From positions 1 through 15,041 of the IMG/VR virus record IMGVR_UViG_2579778989_000004: a DNA stretch of 15,041 nucleotides; one strand, 5' to 3'. The notes beneath the pieces are model-generated. The model did not search any database, was not told where the DNA came from, and saw only the letters and a program-made list of their open reading frames with translations. Shown here piece after piece: positions 1,947 through 15,041 of this stretch. This stretch comes from a virus. Lineage: Duplodnaviria > Heunggongvirae > Uroviricota > Caudoviricetes. Within the stretch, counting starts at the first letter, position 1, and every line of letters starts with the position of its first letter. The position numbers and the translations under genes are program-made.

Positions 1947-2401
1947 GCAGAGTCGCAGCGATTATTTATACTCTGGTTATCTGCACCATCGTCTGCCTGT
2001 CATGGGCTGTTAATCATTACCGCGATAACGCCATTACCTACAAAGCCCAGCGCGACAAAAATGCCAGAGAACTGAAGCTGGCGAACGTGGTAATTACTGA
2101 CATGCAGATGCGTCAGCGTGATGTAGCAGATCTCGACGCCAGATACACAAAGGAGCTTGCTGATGCTAACGCGACTATCGAAAGTCTTCGTGCTGATGTT
2201 TCTGCTGGGCGTAAGCGCCTGCAAGTCGCCGCCACCTGTGCAAAGTCAACGACCGGAGCCAGCAGCATGGGCGATGGAGAAAGCCCAAGACTTACAGCAG
2301 ATGCTGAACTCAATTATTACCGTCTCCGAAGTGGAATCGACAAGATAACCGCTCAGGTCAACTACCTGCAGGAGTACATCAGGACGCAGTGCTTAAAATA
2401 A
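1943..2401 (+). CDS. Rz: Rz inner-membrane spanin (i-spanin). The start is GTG at 1943, overlapping the endolysin TGA stop.
   Basis: The translation [62 protein letters not shown]... is near-identical to lambda Rz as I recall it. The GTG start is chosen over the track's TTG at 1928 by alignment to the lambda Rz N-terminus. Confidence 0.85.
2157..2348 (+). CDS. Rz1: Rz1 outer-membrane lipoprotein spanin (o-spanin), embedded in the +1 frame of Rz.
   Basis: 63-aa ORF lying wholly within Rz in a different frame. Signal peptide with lipobox LLGVSAC followed by a proline-rich segment ([13 protein letters not shown]), as in lambda Rz1. Confidence 0.75.
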
Positions 2402-2438
2402 TTTTAATTTCACTGAAATTTAATACGTGACTTTCAGG

Positions 2439-2469
2439 AAAATGCCTCGCAGATGCGGGGCATTTTTGT
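2439..2469. terminator. Strong intrinsic terminator after the lysis cassette, potentially bidirectional.
   Basis: AAAATGCCTCGC, loop AGAT, GCGGGGCATTTTTGT: a ~12-bp GC-rich stem with one G-U pair, an A-tract upstream and a T-tract downstream. Confidence 0.55.
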
Positions 2470-2760
2470 ACAGGTATTTCACCGCGCACCGCAGCGCACT
2501 CAACCACGTCGAACCAAACCCTTTGGAATGAGCCTTTGAGTAGTCAGTTAGTGCTGGTGAGCCTTGACGGGCTGATCTCCTATGCAGCAAAGGTTCATCT
2601 CAAAGTAAGACGAACGCTATGACAAACCAAGATTCTATAGACCTATCTGATCTTCGTGGAATGGTCAGTTTTCCAGACAAAAGGTAATCACCATAGTCGT
2701 ATGGCTATGAATCTTGTTGCTGCAGATAAGCATTTTGTGATTGAAGTGGTCAAATCTCTC

Positions 2761-2789
2761 AAATGCAGTAAAATGCAGTGCGCTATAAT
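2761..2789 (+). promoter_or_regulatory. Putative sigma70 promoter for the 206-aa gene, with a tandem 10-bp repeat in the -35/spacer region.
   Basis: Consensus -10 TATAAT at 2784-2789, 28 nt upstream of a strong AAGGAG SD (2807-2812) and the ATG at 2818. AAATGCAGTA and AAATGCAGTG are direct tandem repeats at 2761-2780. No convincing -35 hexamer was found. Confidence 0.35.
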
Positions 2790-2817
2790 TCAATAACGGA
2801 GGGAGTAAGGAGAAGTC

Positions 2818-3438
2818 ATGAAAGATCAAGATGTTAGGTTCGCGGTGCATCATAAGCTTTTGAAAGAATCGCATTTAGATCCAGACTGCCTTGTGGTCGA
2901 TGAATTTTCCATATCCCTTGGCGCCAGTAGAGCAGACATTGCTGTAATAAATGGTGTTATACACGGGTACGAGCTCAAAAGTGAATATGACTCTTTGGAG
3001 CGTTTGCCTCTTCAAATCAAGCATTATTCTTCTGTAATGGACAAGGTTACTCTTGTCGTAGCTGAGAAACACCTTGAGGGAGCATTAAAGTTAATCCCAG
3101 GTTGGTGGGGCGTTAAAACGGTTTCTGTTGGGCCAAAAGGCGCCATTCTTATAAAGCACATGCGTGGAGAAAAGCTTAATCGAAACCATGACACATTGAT
3201 GCTCGCTCAATTGCTTTGGAAAGATGAATGTATCGACGTACTTGAACGATGGGGCTATTCCAAAGGAATCAAAAGCAAGCCCCGATTTGAGTTATGGAAT
3301 ATTATTGCGGAAAATATTCCAATAGCGAATCTCAGGCCTGAAGTCAGAACAGCCTTAAAGAAACGCGTAGGCTGGAAAGTTAAGGCTTGGCAGGCTGAGT
3401 CTGCGCCAACCAATAAAGCTGTCTCACGACTAACGTAA
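2818..3438 (+). CDS. Hypothetical protein (206 aa) with an N-terminal PD-(D/E)xK-like nuclease motif. AT-rich accessory gene.
   Basis: Complete ORF with SD AAGGAG at 5-nt spacing. Residues D28-E29, D40 (RADIAVING) and E52-L-K54 (HGYELKSE) fit the hhhD-x(n)-hhExK pattern on predicted beta strands. GC content is visibly lower than in the flanking phage genes. Confidence 0.7.
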   Translation: MKDQDVRFAVHHKLLKESHLDPDCLVVDEFSISLGASRADIAVINGVIHGYELKSEYDSLERLPLQIKHYSSVMDKVTLVVAEKHLEGALKLIPGWWGVKTVSVGPKGAILIKHMRGEKLNRNHDTLMLAQLLWKDECIDVLERWGYSKGIKSKPRFELWNIIAENIPIANLRPEVRTALKKRVGWKVKAWQAESAPTNKAVSRLT

Positions 3439-4447
3439 TATGGTGCGTATGTGCAACTTTACGCCATTCTTTAGAGCCGCCAGATTTGTTAGCGCCTAAT
3501 GATCTTTGGTAAATGTAATCATCCCCCCAACTAAATTTGGAGCCAAAGACTTGATACTCTGGCGAACTAACAAGGGTAGTACATAAGTTTTTAGTTTGGC
3601 CCCATCCATTTCCTTTAACTGCGGTACCTTTTACAAAGATCCATGAGGTATCGTTCGAATATCTCACTGAGACATACTGAGACATGAAGCGTGGGTCTAC
3701 GCTCGTAATGGTAGAGCTAGCGGTGGGATAATCACTAAAACTTGGCGTTCTTCCATTGCTAAAATTCTGTACTACGTACATCCAAAGATCGTATTCATGG
3801 CGCGGAATATGATGAACTTGATGTTGCGGTATCCCTGCCTGTGATGCCGGGTATGCGGTTGAAGATAAAATCAAGTTTCTCCACGGAGCTTGGCCTGATA
3901 ATGTGTTGACCATGCTTAATGCTTGTTGTTTTAAACTATCAGTTGCGTTTTGAATATCTCCAAAATCAATGATTACATCAATTAAACTAGGATGAATATT
4001 TAAGTGGTTAACCAGACTTGTGAATTGGTGCCATGTCTGGGGGGTGATAGACATAGCGAGCCCATTGATTAAGTTGCGTTGAACAGCATGTATATAGTTT
4101 GTTGAATATGCGGGAGAAACAACAGGGATAATTTCCTTACCATTTACTCTAGCATCTTGGATACACATATCTAGAGGATGATGGCGGCTCGAACCATGTT
4201 TATCTAAATATTTAACATCCAGCAAAACAGGACGATTGGCTTTCCAGGATGCCGCAAGGTTAATACCGAAGTCAGATAAGTAAGAACTCAAACTCTTCTT
4301 GTAGCATTCGTTTTCATAATCCCAGTCTATGTCTGGAATGGTAATGATCGGAGTAAAACCAGAGAGCGTAGTTTGATCTAAAAGCATCAGAGATTCATAT
4401 TCAGCAGGCTTCCATTTCAGCTGTGGATAATATTGATGTTGACTCAT
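3380..4447 (-). CDS. Hypothetical protein (355 aa), family not recognised. Convergent with the 206-aa gene and overlapping its 3' end by ~59 bp.
   Basis: Long minus-strand ORF in AT-rich DNA, where spurious long ORFs are unlikely. ATG at 4447-4445 with SD AAGGAG (complement of 4453-4458) at 5-nt spacing. No Walker A or other motif I can assign. Confidence 0.7.
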   Translation of the reverse strand: MSQHQYYPQLKWKPAEYESLMLLDQTTLSGFTPIITIPDIDWDYENECYKKSLSSYLSDFGINLAASWKANRPVLLDVKYLDKHGSSRHHPLDMCIQDARVNGKEIIPVVSPAYSTNYIHAVQRNLINGLAMSITPQTWHQFTSLVNHLNIHPSLIDVIIDFGDIQNATDSLKQQALSMVNTLSGQAPWRNLILSSTAYPASQAGIPQHQVHHIPRHEYDLWMYVVQNFSNGRTPSFSDYPTASSTITSVDPRFMSQYVSVRYSNDTSWIFVKGTAVKGNGWGQTKNLCTTLVSSPEYQVFGSKFSWGDDYIYQRSLGANKSGGSKEWRKVAHTHHITLVVRQLYWLAQTQPAKP

Positions 4448-4639
4448 TAAAACTCCTTAAAATCTTTACTTATCCTAAGTATAGTGTTATGGCGTAACGC
4501 CAATTGTTTTTATACACTTGAAAACATTGGGAAAAGTTGAGCTATATCTAAATTTACAAAATTGGATGTTATAGAAATCGAGGTTTCAACTAGGCATGGA
4601 ACTGCAAAATTTTTAATGCCTGCACGCGAAAGTCGTTGG

Positions 4640-4850
4640 CGGGTCCTTTCCGGTGATCCAGATCGTTACGGGGCGGCGACCTCGCGGGTTTTCGCTATTT
4701 ATGAAAATTTTTAGGGAAAAATCAGATCCGTTCTTCTTCTTTTTAACTGATTGATTATCAATAGAATTTTAAAAATATAAAAGGATCTGACAAAGGCTGT
4801 TTTTGTTAGAAAACGCCATTTTCAGATCCTTTCTGGTTCCCGGGGGAGTG
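4640..4850. other. cos: cos site (cosQ, cosN, cosB) of a lambda-type packaging system. The 12-nt cohesive-end sequence GGGCGGCGACCT is at 4671-4682.
   Basis: GTCGTTGGCGGGTCCTTTCCGGTGATCC...GTTACGGGGCGGCGACCTCGCGGGTTTTCGCTATTTATGAAAATTTT matches the lambda right-end/left-end junction as I recall it. It lies immediately upstream of a Nu1 homologue. Downstream cosB-like repeats are described in findings. Confidence 0.85.
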
Positions 4851-12824: not shown

Positions 12825-13484
12825 ATGGCGATAAAAGGGCTTGATCAGGCGATTGACAATCTGAGCCGGGTTCGTAAAAACGCCATTCCGGCTGCTTCTG
12901 CAATGACCATTAACCGCGTGGCCACAACGGCGATTAATCAGTCTTCGTCACAGGTTGCCCGGGAAACCAGGGTGAGACGGAAACTGGTAAAGGAACGGTC
13001 CAGACTGAAACGGGCGACGGTCAGAAATCCGAATGCCAGAATTATCGTTAACCGCGGTGATCTCCCTGTGATTAAGCTGGGGATCAGAATGCTGGGGCGT
13101 CGTCCGAACAGCATACTCAAAGCCGGTCAGCATCGTTATCAGCGGGCATTTATCCAGCGATTAAATAATGGGCGCTGGCATGTTATGCAACGTCTTCCCC
13201 AGGCCAGATATGAGGAGGGCAATGACGACAAGGGAAGGAAAAAGCGTAATCGCCTTCCCATTCAGGTGGTGAAAATCCCGATGGCGGCCCCACTGAAACA
13301 GGCATTTGATGAGAATGTTGACCGTATCCGGCGTGAACGCCTGCCTAAAGAACTGGCAACTGAAGACGCAGACGTTATATCTGGTGAAAAACGTCTGCGT
13401 CTTAACTACAACGGCATAATTGCATTGTTAGTCGAGGGCTTTAAAACACTTCGTCATGAGATTAAAGAACTCCGGGAGAAGTAA
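12825..13484 (+). CDS. Z: Tail assembly protein Z homologue (lambda gpZ) with a divergent, longer C-terminus; possibly a chimeric 3' end.
   Basis: The N-terminus MAIKGL(D/E)QA..NLSR...AMTINRVA...SQVARET.VRRKLVKER.RLKRATV.NP.ARI.VNRGDLPVIKLG and the segment AFIQ.L.NGRWHVMQR...VVKIPMA.PL...RIRRERLPKEL match lambda Z. The last ~42 residues (ATEDADVISGEKRLRLNYNGIIALLVEGFKTLRHEIKELREK) do not. Confidence 0.85.
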   Translation: MAIKGLDQAIDNLSRVRKNAIPAASAMTINRVATTAINQSSSQVARETRVRRKLVKERSRLKRATVRNPNARIIVNRGDLPVIKLGIRMLGRRPNSILKAGQHRYQRAFIQRLNNGRWHVMQRLPQARYEEGNDDKGRKKRNRLPIQVVKIPMAAPLKQAFDENVDRIRRERLPKELATEDADVISGEKRLRLNYNGIIALLVEGFKTLRHEIKELREK

Positions 13485-13569
13485 ACGACAGCTGTTGTAG
13501 TTTCTGGTTTCTACTGAATTTAAATTGTGGGGTGACACTCACCCCACGCATTCAGAAGGGGGAGATGAG

Positions 13570-13893
13570 ATGGGGGTAACATCGGGATGGGTAGGCTCTT
13601 CGGCTAAGAGCGAAACAGGTGAGCAGTGGATGGGAGCCGCCGGAACCAAACTGGGACTGAGTAAACCTTTTATGATGAGCCAAATGGTTGGGCGAACTAT
13701 GGGCTGTAAAATTGCAACTGAGTACTATAAATGGAAATCCTCTGACAAGGTTGATAACTGGGGCGCAGTTGGCGCTGACTGGCCTTTAGAAGAAAAAAGT
13801 AAAGGTACAATTACAAACGCCGCAAGCTGCGGATCAGGGAGGCTGGTAGGGGCTGTCGTTACACTTTCTCACTTTTTGACGAACTCTACGTAA
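13570..13893 (+). CDS. Small Gly/Trp-rich hypothetical protein (~107 aa from ATG 13570). Its stop codon lies in the first bases of the IS66-family terminus, so the gene may be truncated.
   Basis: ORF with SD-like AAGGGGGAG upstream of ATG 13570 (the track's TTG start is at 13525). The TAA at 13891-13893 is part of the GTAAGCG at 13890-13896. No recognisable family. Confidence 0.4.
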   Translation: MGVTSGWVGSSAKSETGEQWMGAAGTKLGLSKPFMMSQMVGRTMGCKIATEYYKWKSSDKVDNWGAVGADWPLEEKSKGTITNAASCGSGRLVGAVVTLSHFLTNST

Positions 13894-15041
13894 GCGACTC
13901 GTCAGAACCGTATTGATATTTACTGAGAGCTCAGATCAACTTTCCAGGGCAACAGATCGCGTACCCGGTTTGCCGGCCAGTCCTGGATATGTTCAATGAC
14001 GTAACGCAGCCACTTTTCTGGCTCCACATTGTTCAGACGGCATGTGCCGATCAGCGAGTACAACACCGCCGCATGTTCACCACCGCTGTCGGAACCCGCG
14101 AACATCCAGTTTTTCCGGCCTACGGCCACTCCCCGTAAGGCGTTCTCTGCGATGTTGTTGTCGATTTCCACCCAGCCATTACTGCAGTACACGTTCAGTG
14201 CATCCCACTGTTTCAGCAGGTATGCGAACGCTTTTGCCGTATCTGAGTGACGCGACAGTGTTTTCATCTGTTGCTGTATCCAGTCATACAGTGACTGCAT
14301 CAGTGGCGCGGCTCTGGCTTTTCTTGCCGCCAGACGCTGTTCTGCTGAACAGCCCCGGACCTCTGCCTCGATGGCATACAGTTCACCGATACGCTGCAGG
14401 GCTTCCGTGGTGATGTAGGTGGGCGCTCTTGCATGCACATCGTGGATTTTTCTCCGGGCATGAGCCATACACGCGGCTTCCGTTATTCTGCCGGATTCGT
14501 ATAACGCCCGGTAACCACCGTAAGCATCGGCCTGAAGCACACCGCTGTAACCGGCCAGGTGATTTTGTGGATGGATACCTTTCCGGTCCGGACTGTACGC
14601 GAACCAGACCGCCGGGGGCATCTGTGAACCGGCGTTACGGTCATCACGGACGTAGACCCACAGCCGGGCTGTCCGGGTTTTACCGCTGCCCGGCTCCTGG
14701 ACCGGGACGGGGATATCATCAGCATGGACTTTACCGGGCATCAGCACATACTGGCGCAGGACGTCATACAGCGGCTCCAGCAGTTCAGCAACAGCACCTG
14801 TCCAGCGCCCCAGTGTGGCACGGCTCAGCTCCACTCCCTGACGACGGTATATTTCTGACTGGCGGTATAACGGCAGATGGTCTGCATATTTCCCGGTGAC
14901 AACATGGGCCAGAAGCCCCGCTCCGGCATAACTGCGTGCAATGGGTTTTGAAGGTACTGGTGCCTGCACGATATGGTCGCACCGGCAACAGGCCTGTTTC
15001 GGACGTTGTGTTTCGATAACCTTAAAGGCGCTGCTGATAAG
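13890..15041 (-). mobile_element. IS66-family insertion sequence, partial (extends beyond the window end), inverted relative to the phage genes.
   Basis: GTAAGCG at 13890-13896 is typical of IS66-family terminal inverted repeats. It lies 30 bp outside the stop of a minus-strand IS66-type transposase gene. Confidence 0.7.
13920..15041 (-). CDS. tnpC: IS66-family transposase (TnpC-type), C-terminal ~374 codons; the N-terminus is outside the window.
   Basis: The minus-strand frame stays open past the track's GTG start at 14969 through to base 15041. The translation (…[28 protein letters not shown]…, …[36 protein letters not shown]…) is characteristic of IS66 TnpC. Cys-rich CCRC segment upstream. 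Confidence 0.85.

What the first reader, a model, noticed from the sequence alone, without database searches (positions are those of the whole stretch)
2899..2982. PD-(D/E)xK nuclease-like motif in the 206-aa protein
Residues 24-58 read CLVVDEFSISLGASRADIAVINGVIHGYELKSEYD. D40 sits at the start of a hydrophobic strand (ADIAVI) and E52-L-K54 follows after a short turn (HGYELK). This is the hhhD-x(10-15)-hhExK arrangement of restriction-endonuclease-fold nucleases, with an extra acidic pair (D28-E29) upstream. A nuclease of this type in a moron island is a typical effector of an abortive-infection, toxin or restriction-like system.
Basis: partly seen in the sequence, partly recalled or inferred. 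Interest (0 to 1): 0.7.

Follow-up and report, generated by a model that had tools for sequence, protein, structure and literature searches.

The report
Conserved nuclease of P4-cII family
The 206-residue protein is very probably a DNA-cutting enzyme of the restriction-endonuclease fold, a relative of satellite phage P4's cII protein, and it sits tail-to-tail with a barrel-shaped partner protein in a small imported cassette of a prophage that most likely protects the host cell against other phages.

Summary

The protein belongs to a named family: NCBIfam sce7726 and Pfam Phage_P4_cII. P4 cII is one gene of the gop-beta-cII anti-phage system. Its neighbour 3380-4447(-) is a Beta_protein family member with a TIM-barrel fold.

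The two genes converge with overlapping 3' ends. The same arrangement occurs in 77 of 80 loci from many phyla. In some loci it is preceded by the PD-lambda-2 HigB and Xre-peptidase genes.

The window carries neither gop nor those genes. It holds the bare two-gene core, as a 2.2-kb low-GC moron between Rz and cos/Nu1 of a lambdoid prophage.

Most likely role: the nuclease is the effector of a prophage-borne defence or abortive-infection module controlled by Beta. This role is inferred, not shown. The case is a new variant of a known kind and of moderate interest.

The parts
2818..3438 (+). Gene for the 206-aa sce7726 / Phage_P4_cII family protein
   Evidence: ORF with an AAGGAG Shine-Dalgarno sequence upstream. 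NCBIfam NF033832 scores 184 bits against a cut-off of 70. PADLOC 'cll' E 3.8e-31. RefSeq names it 'sce7726 family protein'.
2818..3183 (+). N-terminal PD-(D/E)xK nuclease-fold domain (residues 1-122)
2902..3027 (+). Catalytic motif E29-x10-D40-x11-E52-x-K54-x3-D58-x7-Q66-xxx-Y70. The finding's 2899-2982 lies inside it.
   Evidence: All these residues are invariant or nearly invariant in 338 distinct homologues and in alignments A1 and A3.
3193..3363 (+). C-terminal four-helix domain (residues 126-182), possibly nucleic-acid binding
3379..3438 (+). Non-conserved, disordered C-terminal tail of the cII-like protein (from about residue 188), read antisense through the end of the beta gene
   Evidence: pLDDT <50 for residues 189-206. 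Tail length and sequence vary among close homologues.
3380..4447 (-). Gene for the 355-aa Beta_protein family partner (TIM barrel)
3380..3438 (.). 59-nt overlap of the two convergent coding regions
   Evidence: Coordinates. The same tail-to-tail overlap, always 2 mod 3, occurs in 88 of 91 paired loci.
2406..4635 (.). Imported cassette (moron) between Rz and the cos/Nu1 side of a lambdoid prophage
   Evidence: Homology with other lambdoid phages stops at about 2405 and resumes at about 4636. GC is 0.36-0.43 inside against about 0.50 outside. The cassette is present in 126 of 5426 complete E. coli genomes.
2747..2774 (+). Promoter-like site upstream of the cII-like gene (weak evidence)
   Evidence: TGGTCA-16-TAAAAT, 9 of 12 matches. 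The number of sites is not above the shuffle expectation.
4754..4793 (-). Promoter-like sites upstream of beta (weak evidence)
   Evidence: TTGTCA-16-TAAAAT (10 of 12) and TTTATA-16-GATAAT. Not above the shuffle expectation.

Best explanation
The 206-aa protein is a metal-dependent nuclease of the PD-(D/E)xK (restriction-endonuclease) fold. It resembles MmcB and RecB-like enzymes, has an intact active site E29 / D40 / E52-x-K54 plus D58 and Q66xxxY70, and carries a small C-terminal helical domain. It belongs to the sce7726 / Phage_P4_cII family.

It works together with the TIM-barrel Beta protein encoded tail-to-tail on the other strand. The pair is the conserved two-gene core of the P4 gop-beta-cII and PD-lambda-2-like anti-phage systems.

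In this window the core stands alone, as a moron in the Rz-cos hotspot of a lambdoid prophage. The most likely role is superinfection exclusion or abortive infection. On sensing an incoming phage, Beta (a probable enzyme or sensor) releases or licenses the nuclease, which then cuts DNA.

Shown here: the fold, the invariance of the motif, family membership, the gene pairing and the mobile-element context. Inferred: nuclease activity, DNA as the substrate, control by Beta and the anti-phage role.
For: Fold and motif:
- AF2 model at pLDDT 90 with the alpha-beta-beta-beta-alpha-beta core.
- Foldseek ranks 3dnx first (E 6e-4, prob 1.00) and SfsA second.
- The catalytic residues are invariant in 338 homologues, including P4 cII.

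Family:
- NF033832 at 184 bits.
- PF26915 Phage_P4_cII on homologues.
- PADLOC 'cll'.
- 5583 clusters at 50% identity.

Pairing:
- 77 of 80 genome loci from many phyla have a convergent Beta gene. Two of the other three are cut by a contig end.
- The arrangement is the same in P4.
- Beta has many invariant charged residues, some at strand ends of a TIM barrel (D77, D239), as expected of an enzyme.

Defence link:
- gop-beta-cII protects against lambda and P1 (PMC9122126).
- It triggers cell death in response to phage orf184 (bioRxiv 10.1101/2023.04.06.535777).
- Pairs lie in P4-like elements, prophages and next to other defence-type genes.

Moron status.
Against: - No biochemical or genetic data exist for any member of the cII family alone. 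The defence tests used whole systems.
- In P4 the toxic component is Gop and in PD-lambda-2 it is the Xre-peptidase. Neither is cII.
- The E. coli PD-lambda-2-type locus has no cII gene. The published PD-lambda-2 clone has only about 390-bp flanks. Beta can therefore act in defence without cII.
- Sequence profiles do not reach any solved structure or the Pfam MmcB-like family. The fold assignment thus rests on a predicted model.
- The Beta fold matches are generic and give no substrate.
- PHROGs lists both families as unknown function.
Confidence: 0.6

Rival explanations
1. Addiction or toxin-antitoxin module. The cII-like nuclease is a toxin and Beta its antitoxin (or the reverse). The pair only stabilises the prophage or mobile element and has no direct anti-phage role.
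For: - Beta neutralises Gop toxicity in P4, as reported in PMC9122126 citing Ghisotti 1990.
- The pair travels on many kinds of mobile elements.
- Convergent overlapping transcription could provide antisense control.
Against: - Beta is a 355-aa TIM barrel with many invariant polar residues, unlike typical small antitoxins.
- The related three-gene systems do protect against phage.
- Beta is not needed to neutralise the toxin in PD-lambda-2.
Confidence: 0.15
2. Restriction-modification-like pair. Beta chemically modifies DNA or a nucleotide pool, and the nuclease cuts unmodified (or modified) foreign DNA.
For: - The nuclease resembles restriction enzymes.
- The strict two-gene linkage resembles R-M pairs.
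Against: - The transglycosylase matches rank no better than dozens of unrelated barrels, at under 12% identity.
- No cofactor-binding motif was identified.
- Published relatives behave as abortive-infection or cell-death systems.
Confidence: 0.1
3. A function of the element's own life cycle. The protein is a DNA repair or recombination nuclease like MmcB, or a lysogeny regulator as the historical name cII suggests, and is not a defence effector.
For: - The closest structure, SPO1766, is MmcB-like (my own knowledge), and one database entry names a homologue 'DNA repair protein MmcB-like'.
- P4 cII was named from a plaque phenotype (my own recollection of Ghisotti 1990; the paper is not held).
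Against: - The gene lies in a variable moron hotspot, not in the replication or recombination module.
- It is non-essential in P4.
- It is present in only 126 of 5426 E. coli genomes.
- Its obligate partner is a component of known defence systems.
Confidence: 0.1
4. An inactive nuclease-like fold. The motif survives for structural or binding reasons, and the protein acts only as a DNA-binding adaptor.
For: Catalytically dead PD-(D/E)xK domains exist in other families (general knowledge). No activity data exist for this family.
Against: Every canonical catalytic position is invariant across 338 sequences from distant phyla, including accessory positions D58, Q66 and Y70. That pattern is typical of active enzymes.
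Confidence: 0.05

Closest known systems
Bacteriophage P4 cII protein, in the gop-beta-cII anti-phage system (PADLOC 'cll'; Pfam PF26915 Phage_P4_cII; NCBIfam NF033832 sce7726 family)
   Same: - Homologous over residues 1-195 (tblastn E 1e-17, 27% identity; PADLOC E 3.8e-31).
- The same catalytic residues E, R, D, E, K, D, Q are present.
- Both are convergent with a 355-aa beta gene.
- Both lie next to cos in a variable hotspot of a mobile element.
   Different: - The window has no gop gene (no tblastn hit and no ORF upstream of beta).
- P4 cII is 264 aa with an extra C-terminal region.
- P4 has a 27-nt gap with an annotated terminator in place of the 59-nt overlap.
- The window's Beta is only about 22% identical to P4 beta.
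- The host element is a lambdoid prophage, not a P4-like satellite.
PD-lambda-2 defence system (Vassallo et al. 2022): HigB-like A, Xre-M78 peptidase B, Beta-like C
   Same: - The window's Beta matches PD-Lambda-2_C better than it matches P4 beta (E 4e-32 against 3e-10).
- In 12 of 80 cII-anchored loci, and in 3 of 3 distinct peptidase proteins looked up (7 places), the A-B-C operon is followed by a convergent, overlapping cII gene.
   Different: - The window lacks A and B.
- The E. coli PD-lambda-2-type locus lacks cII.
- The published system is defined by three genes without a nuclease.
MmcB-like / DUF1052 proteins (structure 3dnx, SPO1766) and RecB-type PD-(D/E)xK nucleases
   Same: - The D...ExK...QxxxY motif order is that of RecB-family nucleases (established knowledge).
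   Different: - No detectable sequence-profile match to Pfam or PDB.
- The window protein has an added C-terminal helical domain.
- Its genomic context is different: it is always paired with Beta.

Membership tests
PD-(D/E)xK (restriction-endonuclease-like) superfamily | alpha-beta-beta-beta-alpha-beta core fold | tested here: met
   [not shown]
PD-(D/E)xK (restriction-endonuclease-like) superfamily | Acidic residue on the second core strand and (D/E)xK on the third strand, both conserved | tested here: met
   D40 lies on strand 37-44 and E52-x-K54 on strand 48-54. Conservation: 335 of 336, 338 of 338 and 338 of 338.
PD-(D/E)xK (restriction-endonuclease-like) superfamily | Metal-dependent phosphodiester cleavage | not testable with these tools
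   Needs an in-vitro assay.
RecB-like nuclease subgroup | QxxxY motif on the helix after the ExK strand | tested here: met
   Q66 is present in 338 of 338 sequences, and Y70 in 325 plus 11 F. Both lie on helix 63-73. The meaning of the motif comes from established knowledge.
sce7726 family (NCBIfam NF033832) / Pfam PF26915 Phage_P4_cII | HMM score above the curated cut-off | tested here: met
   184.1 bits against a cut-off of 70, over the full model length 1-182 of 184. PF26915 is precomputed on the 99%-identical P0001 and on all listed homologues. The local Pfam copy lacks that model.
MmcB-like (DUF1052) family | Sequence-profile match to the family | tested here: not met
   No Pfam hit at E<=10 for any of 35 members. 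No profile hit to 3dnx. Only structural resemblance was found.
gop-beta-cII system (P4; PADLOC and DefenseFinder) | cII homologue | tested here: met
   PADLOC 'cll' E 3.8e-31. tblastn with P4 cII E 1e-17.
gop-beta-cII system (P4; PADLOC and DefenseFinder) | beta homologue adjacent and convergent to cII | tested here: met
   PF14350 E 8e-56 and PADLOC 'beta' E 3e-10. Convergent arrangement as in P4.
gop-beta-cII system (P4; PADLOC and DefenseFinder) | gop gene upstream of beta | tested here: not met
   No tblastn match better than E 0.3 anywhere in the window. No ORF of at least 20 aa on the minus strand between 4448 and 4805.
gop-beta-cII system (P4; PADLOC and DefenseFinder) | Protection against phage | not testable with these tools
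   Shown only for the P4-type three-gene system (PMC9122126).
PD-lambda-2 system | HigB-like A and Xre-M78 peptidase B upstream of Beta-like C | tested here: not met
   C is met (PD-Lambda-2_C E 4e-32). The window has no ORFs of that kind next to beta.

The most novel reading that the evidence does not exclude
The cII-like nuclease plus the Beta TIM barrel is an ancient, very widespread two-gene immune core. It has thousands of sequence clusters and ranges from Proteobacteria to Firmicutes and candidate-phyla bacteria. Its nuclease effector has been overlooked. Gop in P4 and the HigB/Xre-peptidase pair in PD-lambda-2-like loci would then be add-on modules. Beta would be an enzyme that senses infection or makes a signal that licenses the nuclease. 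The conserved tail-to-tail coding overlap in a fixed frame would enforce mutual antisense control of the two genes.
Probability: 0.3. Interest if true: 0.65.

Novelty: new variant of a known kind. Interest (0 to 1): 0.45.

Why it matters
Two experimentally validated anti-phage systems, P4 gop-beta-cII and PD-lambda-2, have no known mechanism. Their shared Beta component is described only as an 'antitoxin-like' protein.

This work shows that the cII partner is a nuclease-fold protein with an invariant active site. It also shows that cII plus Beta, not gop or HigB, is the part conserved across phyla. That gives a concrete and testable effector, through D40A, E52A and K54A mutants.

It also suggests that system definitions requiring gop or HigB/peptidase genes would miss the commonest, two-gene form. 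That form is present here in about 2% of complete E. coli genomes. I did not test whether current defence-finding tools call it.

Tried and rejected
1. Sequence links to solved structures failed. phmmer and two profile searches (full length, and the N-terminal domain alone) found no meaningful PDB match.

2. Pfam scans of the window protein and of 35 homologues at E<=10 gave no PD-(D/E)xK or MmcB-like hit. The fold assignment is therefore structural only.

3. The afdb50 fold library was not available.

4. A search for a gop homologue or any ORF upstream of beta found none.

5. A search for informative domain fusions in longer family members found no Pfam domains. The extensions are probably antisense read-through into beta.

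6. Ghisotti et al. 1990, the original P4 genetics paper, is not held. Statements about the cII plaque phenotype are from memory.

7. One literature search on 'beta family protein' returned only TGF-beta and importin papers.

8. I tried to find out whether the original ECOR42 PD-lambda-2 locus has a cII gene. The peptidase homologue search listed no E. coli entry. A related E. coli locus has a DUF6119 gene there instead, and that gene has no PADLOC match.

10. The promoter and terminator scans were not above the shuffle expectation.

Full report
**Observation.** Coordinates 2899-2982 span D28 to S55. RefSeq annotates the same ORF in E. coli 55989 and other strains.

The bare pattern (hydrophobic-D-hydrophobic, 9-16 residues, hydrophobic-E-x-K) is only mildly unusual. 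It appears in 4.4% of shuffles of this protein and in 1 of 63 six-frame ORFs of the window. The motif string alone would therefore not prove anything.

**Conservation.** A search of 5.8 billion proteins found 314 homologues. A profile search of 1.84 billion cluster representatives found 5583 at E<=0.001. I aligned 338 distinct members, taken from those searches, from 80 genome loci and from P4 cII itself. The counts are:
- E29: 333 of 333 ungapped
- D40: 335 of 336
- E52, K54, D58, R62 and Q66: 338 of 338 each
- Y70: 325, plus 11 F
(all).

The full signature is E-x10-D-x11-ExK-x3-D-x7-QxxxY.

**Fold.** AlphaFold2 with a 35-sequence alignment gave pLDDT 90 and pTM 0.84.
- The core runs helix 3-20, strands 25-32, 37-44 and 48-54, helix 63-73 and strand 76-82. 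This is the alpha-beta-beta-beta-alpha-beta core.
- Two more strands follow, and then a four-helix C-terminal domain (126-182).
- Residues 189-206 are disordered.
- D40 sits on the second core strand, ExK on the third, and QxxxY on the following helix. From established knowledge, this is the layout of RecB-type PD-(D/E)xK nucleases.

Sequence profiles do not reach any PDB chain or any Pfam nuclease family. The assignment therefore rests on the predicted structure plus the motif.

**What the protein is.** It is a full-length member of NCBIfam NF033832, 'sce7726 family' (184 bits against a cut-off of 70). Its homologues carry Pfam PF26915, 'Phage_P4_cII'. It matches the PADLOC model 'cll' at E 3.8e-31. 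P4 cII is itself annotated as an sce7726 family protein and aligns over residues 1-195. PHROGs lists the family as unknown function.

**Surroundings.** The convergent gene 3380-4447(-) encodes a 355-aa Beta_protein (PF14350, E 8e-56). It matches PADLOC PD-Lambda-2_C (4e-32) and P4 'beta' (3e-10).
- Its AF2 model (pLDDT 93) is a TIM barrel with a C-terminal helical subdomain.
- Many invariant charged residues, some at strand ends (D77, D239), suggest an enzyme.

The two coding regions overlap by 59 nt.

The cassette (about 2406-4635) lies between Rz and the cos/Nu1 side of a lambdoid prophage. Homology with other lambdoid phages stops at about 2405 and resumes at about 4636, and those phages carry other cargo at this position. 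GC falls to 0.36-0.43 from about 0.50. The cassette is found in 126 of 5426 complete E. coli genomes.

**Comparative context.** Eighty loci were found through the cII motif in one-genome-per-species contigs. They span Proteobacteria, Myxococcota, Firmicutes, Acidobacteriota, Chloroflexota, Elusimicrobiota and candidate-phyla bacteria.
- In 77 of the 80, a Beta gene lies immediately downstream and convergent.
- Two of the other three are cut by a contig end. One (L020) truly lacks beta.
- After clustering at 60% identity, 34 of 35 clusters keep the overlap.

The conserved end of cII (W186) abuts beta's stop codon. The two functional coding regions are thus packed tail to tail with no spacer, and the cII tail is read-through.

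P4 has the same order (gop, beta, then convergent cII), but with a 27-nt gap and an annotated terminator.

In 12 of the 80 loci, beta is preceded by a HigB-like gene and an Xre-M78 peptidase gene. The same holds for all three distinct peptidase proteins that I looked up independently (7 places). These match PD-Lambda-2_A and PD-Lambda-2_B at E 1e-37 and 1e-140. PD-lambda-2-type operons therefore commonly have a fourth, convergent cII gene.

An E. coli PD-lambda-2-type locus has a DUF6119 gene there instead. The published clone has only about 390-bp flanks. Beta-dependent defence can thus occur without cII.

The window has neither gop nor the HigB and peptidase genes. It holds the bare core.

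**Published function of relatives.**
- gop-beta-cII protects against lambda and P1. Gop is toxic without beta (PMC9122126).
- The system causes cell death when phage orf184 is expressed (bioRxiv 10.1101/2023.04.06.535777).
- PD-lambda-2C is required for defence, but not for neutralising the toxin (PMC9519451).
- I found no paper that assigns a role or a fold to cII. The name 'sce7726' occurs only in genome descriptions. One automated database label reads 'DNA repair protein MmcB-like'.

**Mechanism.** The best-supported reading is that the protein is an active PD-(D/E)xK nuclease. It would act as the effector of a prophage-borne anti-phage (exclusion or abortive-infection) module, under the control of the Beta TIM-barrel protein.

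The fold, the active-site conservation, family membership, the pairing and the mobile context are shown. The activity, the substrate, the control by Beta and the defence role are inferred.

Four rivals remain:
- a pure addiction module;
- a modification-restriction pair in which Beta modifies DNA;
- a repair or lysogeny function of the element itself;
- an inactive fold.

The main counter-evidence to the preferred reading has two parts. The toxic components identified so far in related systems are not cII. Beta can also work without cII in E. coli PD-lambda-2.

The case is a new variant of a known kind, namely a gop-less, two-gene form of the P4 gop-beta-cII type. It is of moderate interest because it offers a testable effector for two mechanistically unexplained defence systems.

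Noticed in passing
window 3380-3438; loci L003-L100: The cII-like and Beta genes are packed tail to tail with overlapping 3' coding ends in 88 of 91 pairs. The overlap (11-158 nt) is always 2 mod 3, from Proteobacteria to candidate-phyla bacteria. This leaves no room for an intergenic terminator, so the two transcripts should be antisense to each other. Only P4, L018 and L021 have a gap.
   Followed up: partly
L047, L057, L068, L070, L078, L083, L085, L092, L094-L100: PD-lambda-2-type operons (HigB-like, Xre-M78 peptidase, Beta) are followed by a convergent, overlapping cII/sce7726 gene. This fourth gene is not part of the published three-gene definition. It occurs in 12 of 80 cII-anchored loci and for all 3 distinct peptidase proteins looked up (7 places).
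   Followed up: partly
L101 619-2268 (E. coli AREA_C483): In an E. coli PD-lambda-2-type locus, the position convergent to Beta is occupied by a 549-aa DUF6119 protein instead of cII. That protein has no PADLOC match. Whether it substitutes functionally for cII is unknown.
   Followed up: partly
window 13525-14969: Directly after minor tail gene Z (12825-13484) come a 122-aa ORF with only a Gp38_N tail-fibre adhesin fragment and an IS66-family transposase on the minus strand (13920-14969). In E. coli 55989 the tail genes U, V and G lie at the corresponding place. The prophage in this window is probably defective.
   Followed up: partly
window 2157-2348: A 63-aa ORF with a lipoprotein-like signal (LLGVSAC) is embedded in the +1 frame of the Rz gene (1928-2401). 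This is the usual Rz1 spanin arrangement.
   Followed up: no
window 4636-4700: This 65-nt stretch just upstream of Nu1 is about 90% identical to many lambdoid phages. In HK629 and HK630 it matches near the right genome end. It probably belongs to the cos region and marks the right border of the inserted cassette.
   Followed up: partly
L020 6001-6567 (Xenorhabdus koppenhoeferi): A solitary cII-family gene with 2.8 kb of downstream sequence and no Beta homologue by tblastn. It is the only clear exception to the pairing.
   Followed up: partly
P0189, P0214, P0167, P0238 (family members of 326-395 aa): Some predicted cII-family proteins are about 200 aa longer at the C-terminus and have no Pfam domain there. 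The extensions probably come from an unusually open antisense frame running through the Beta gene, not from real fusions.
   Followed up: partly
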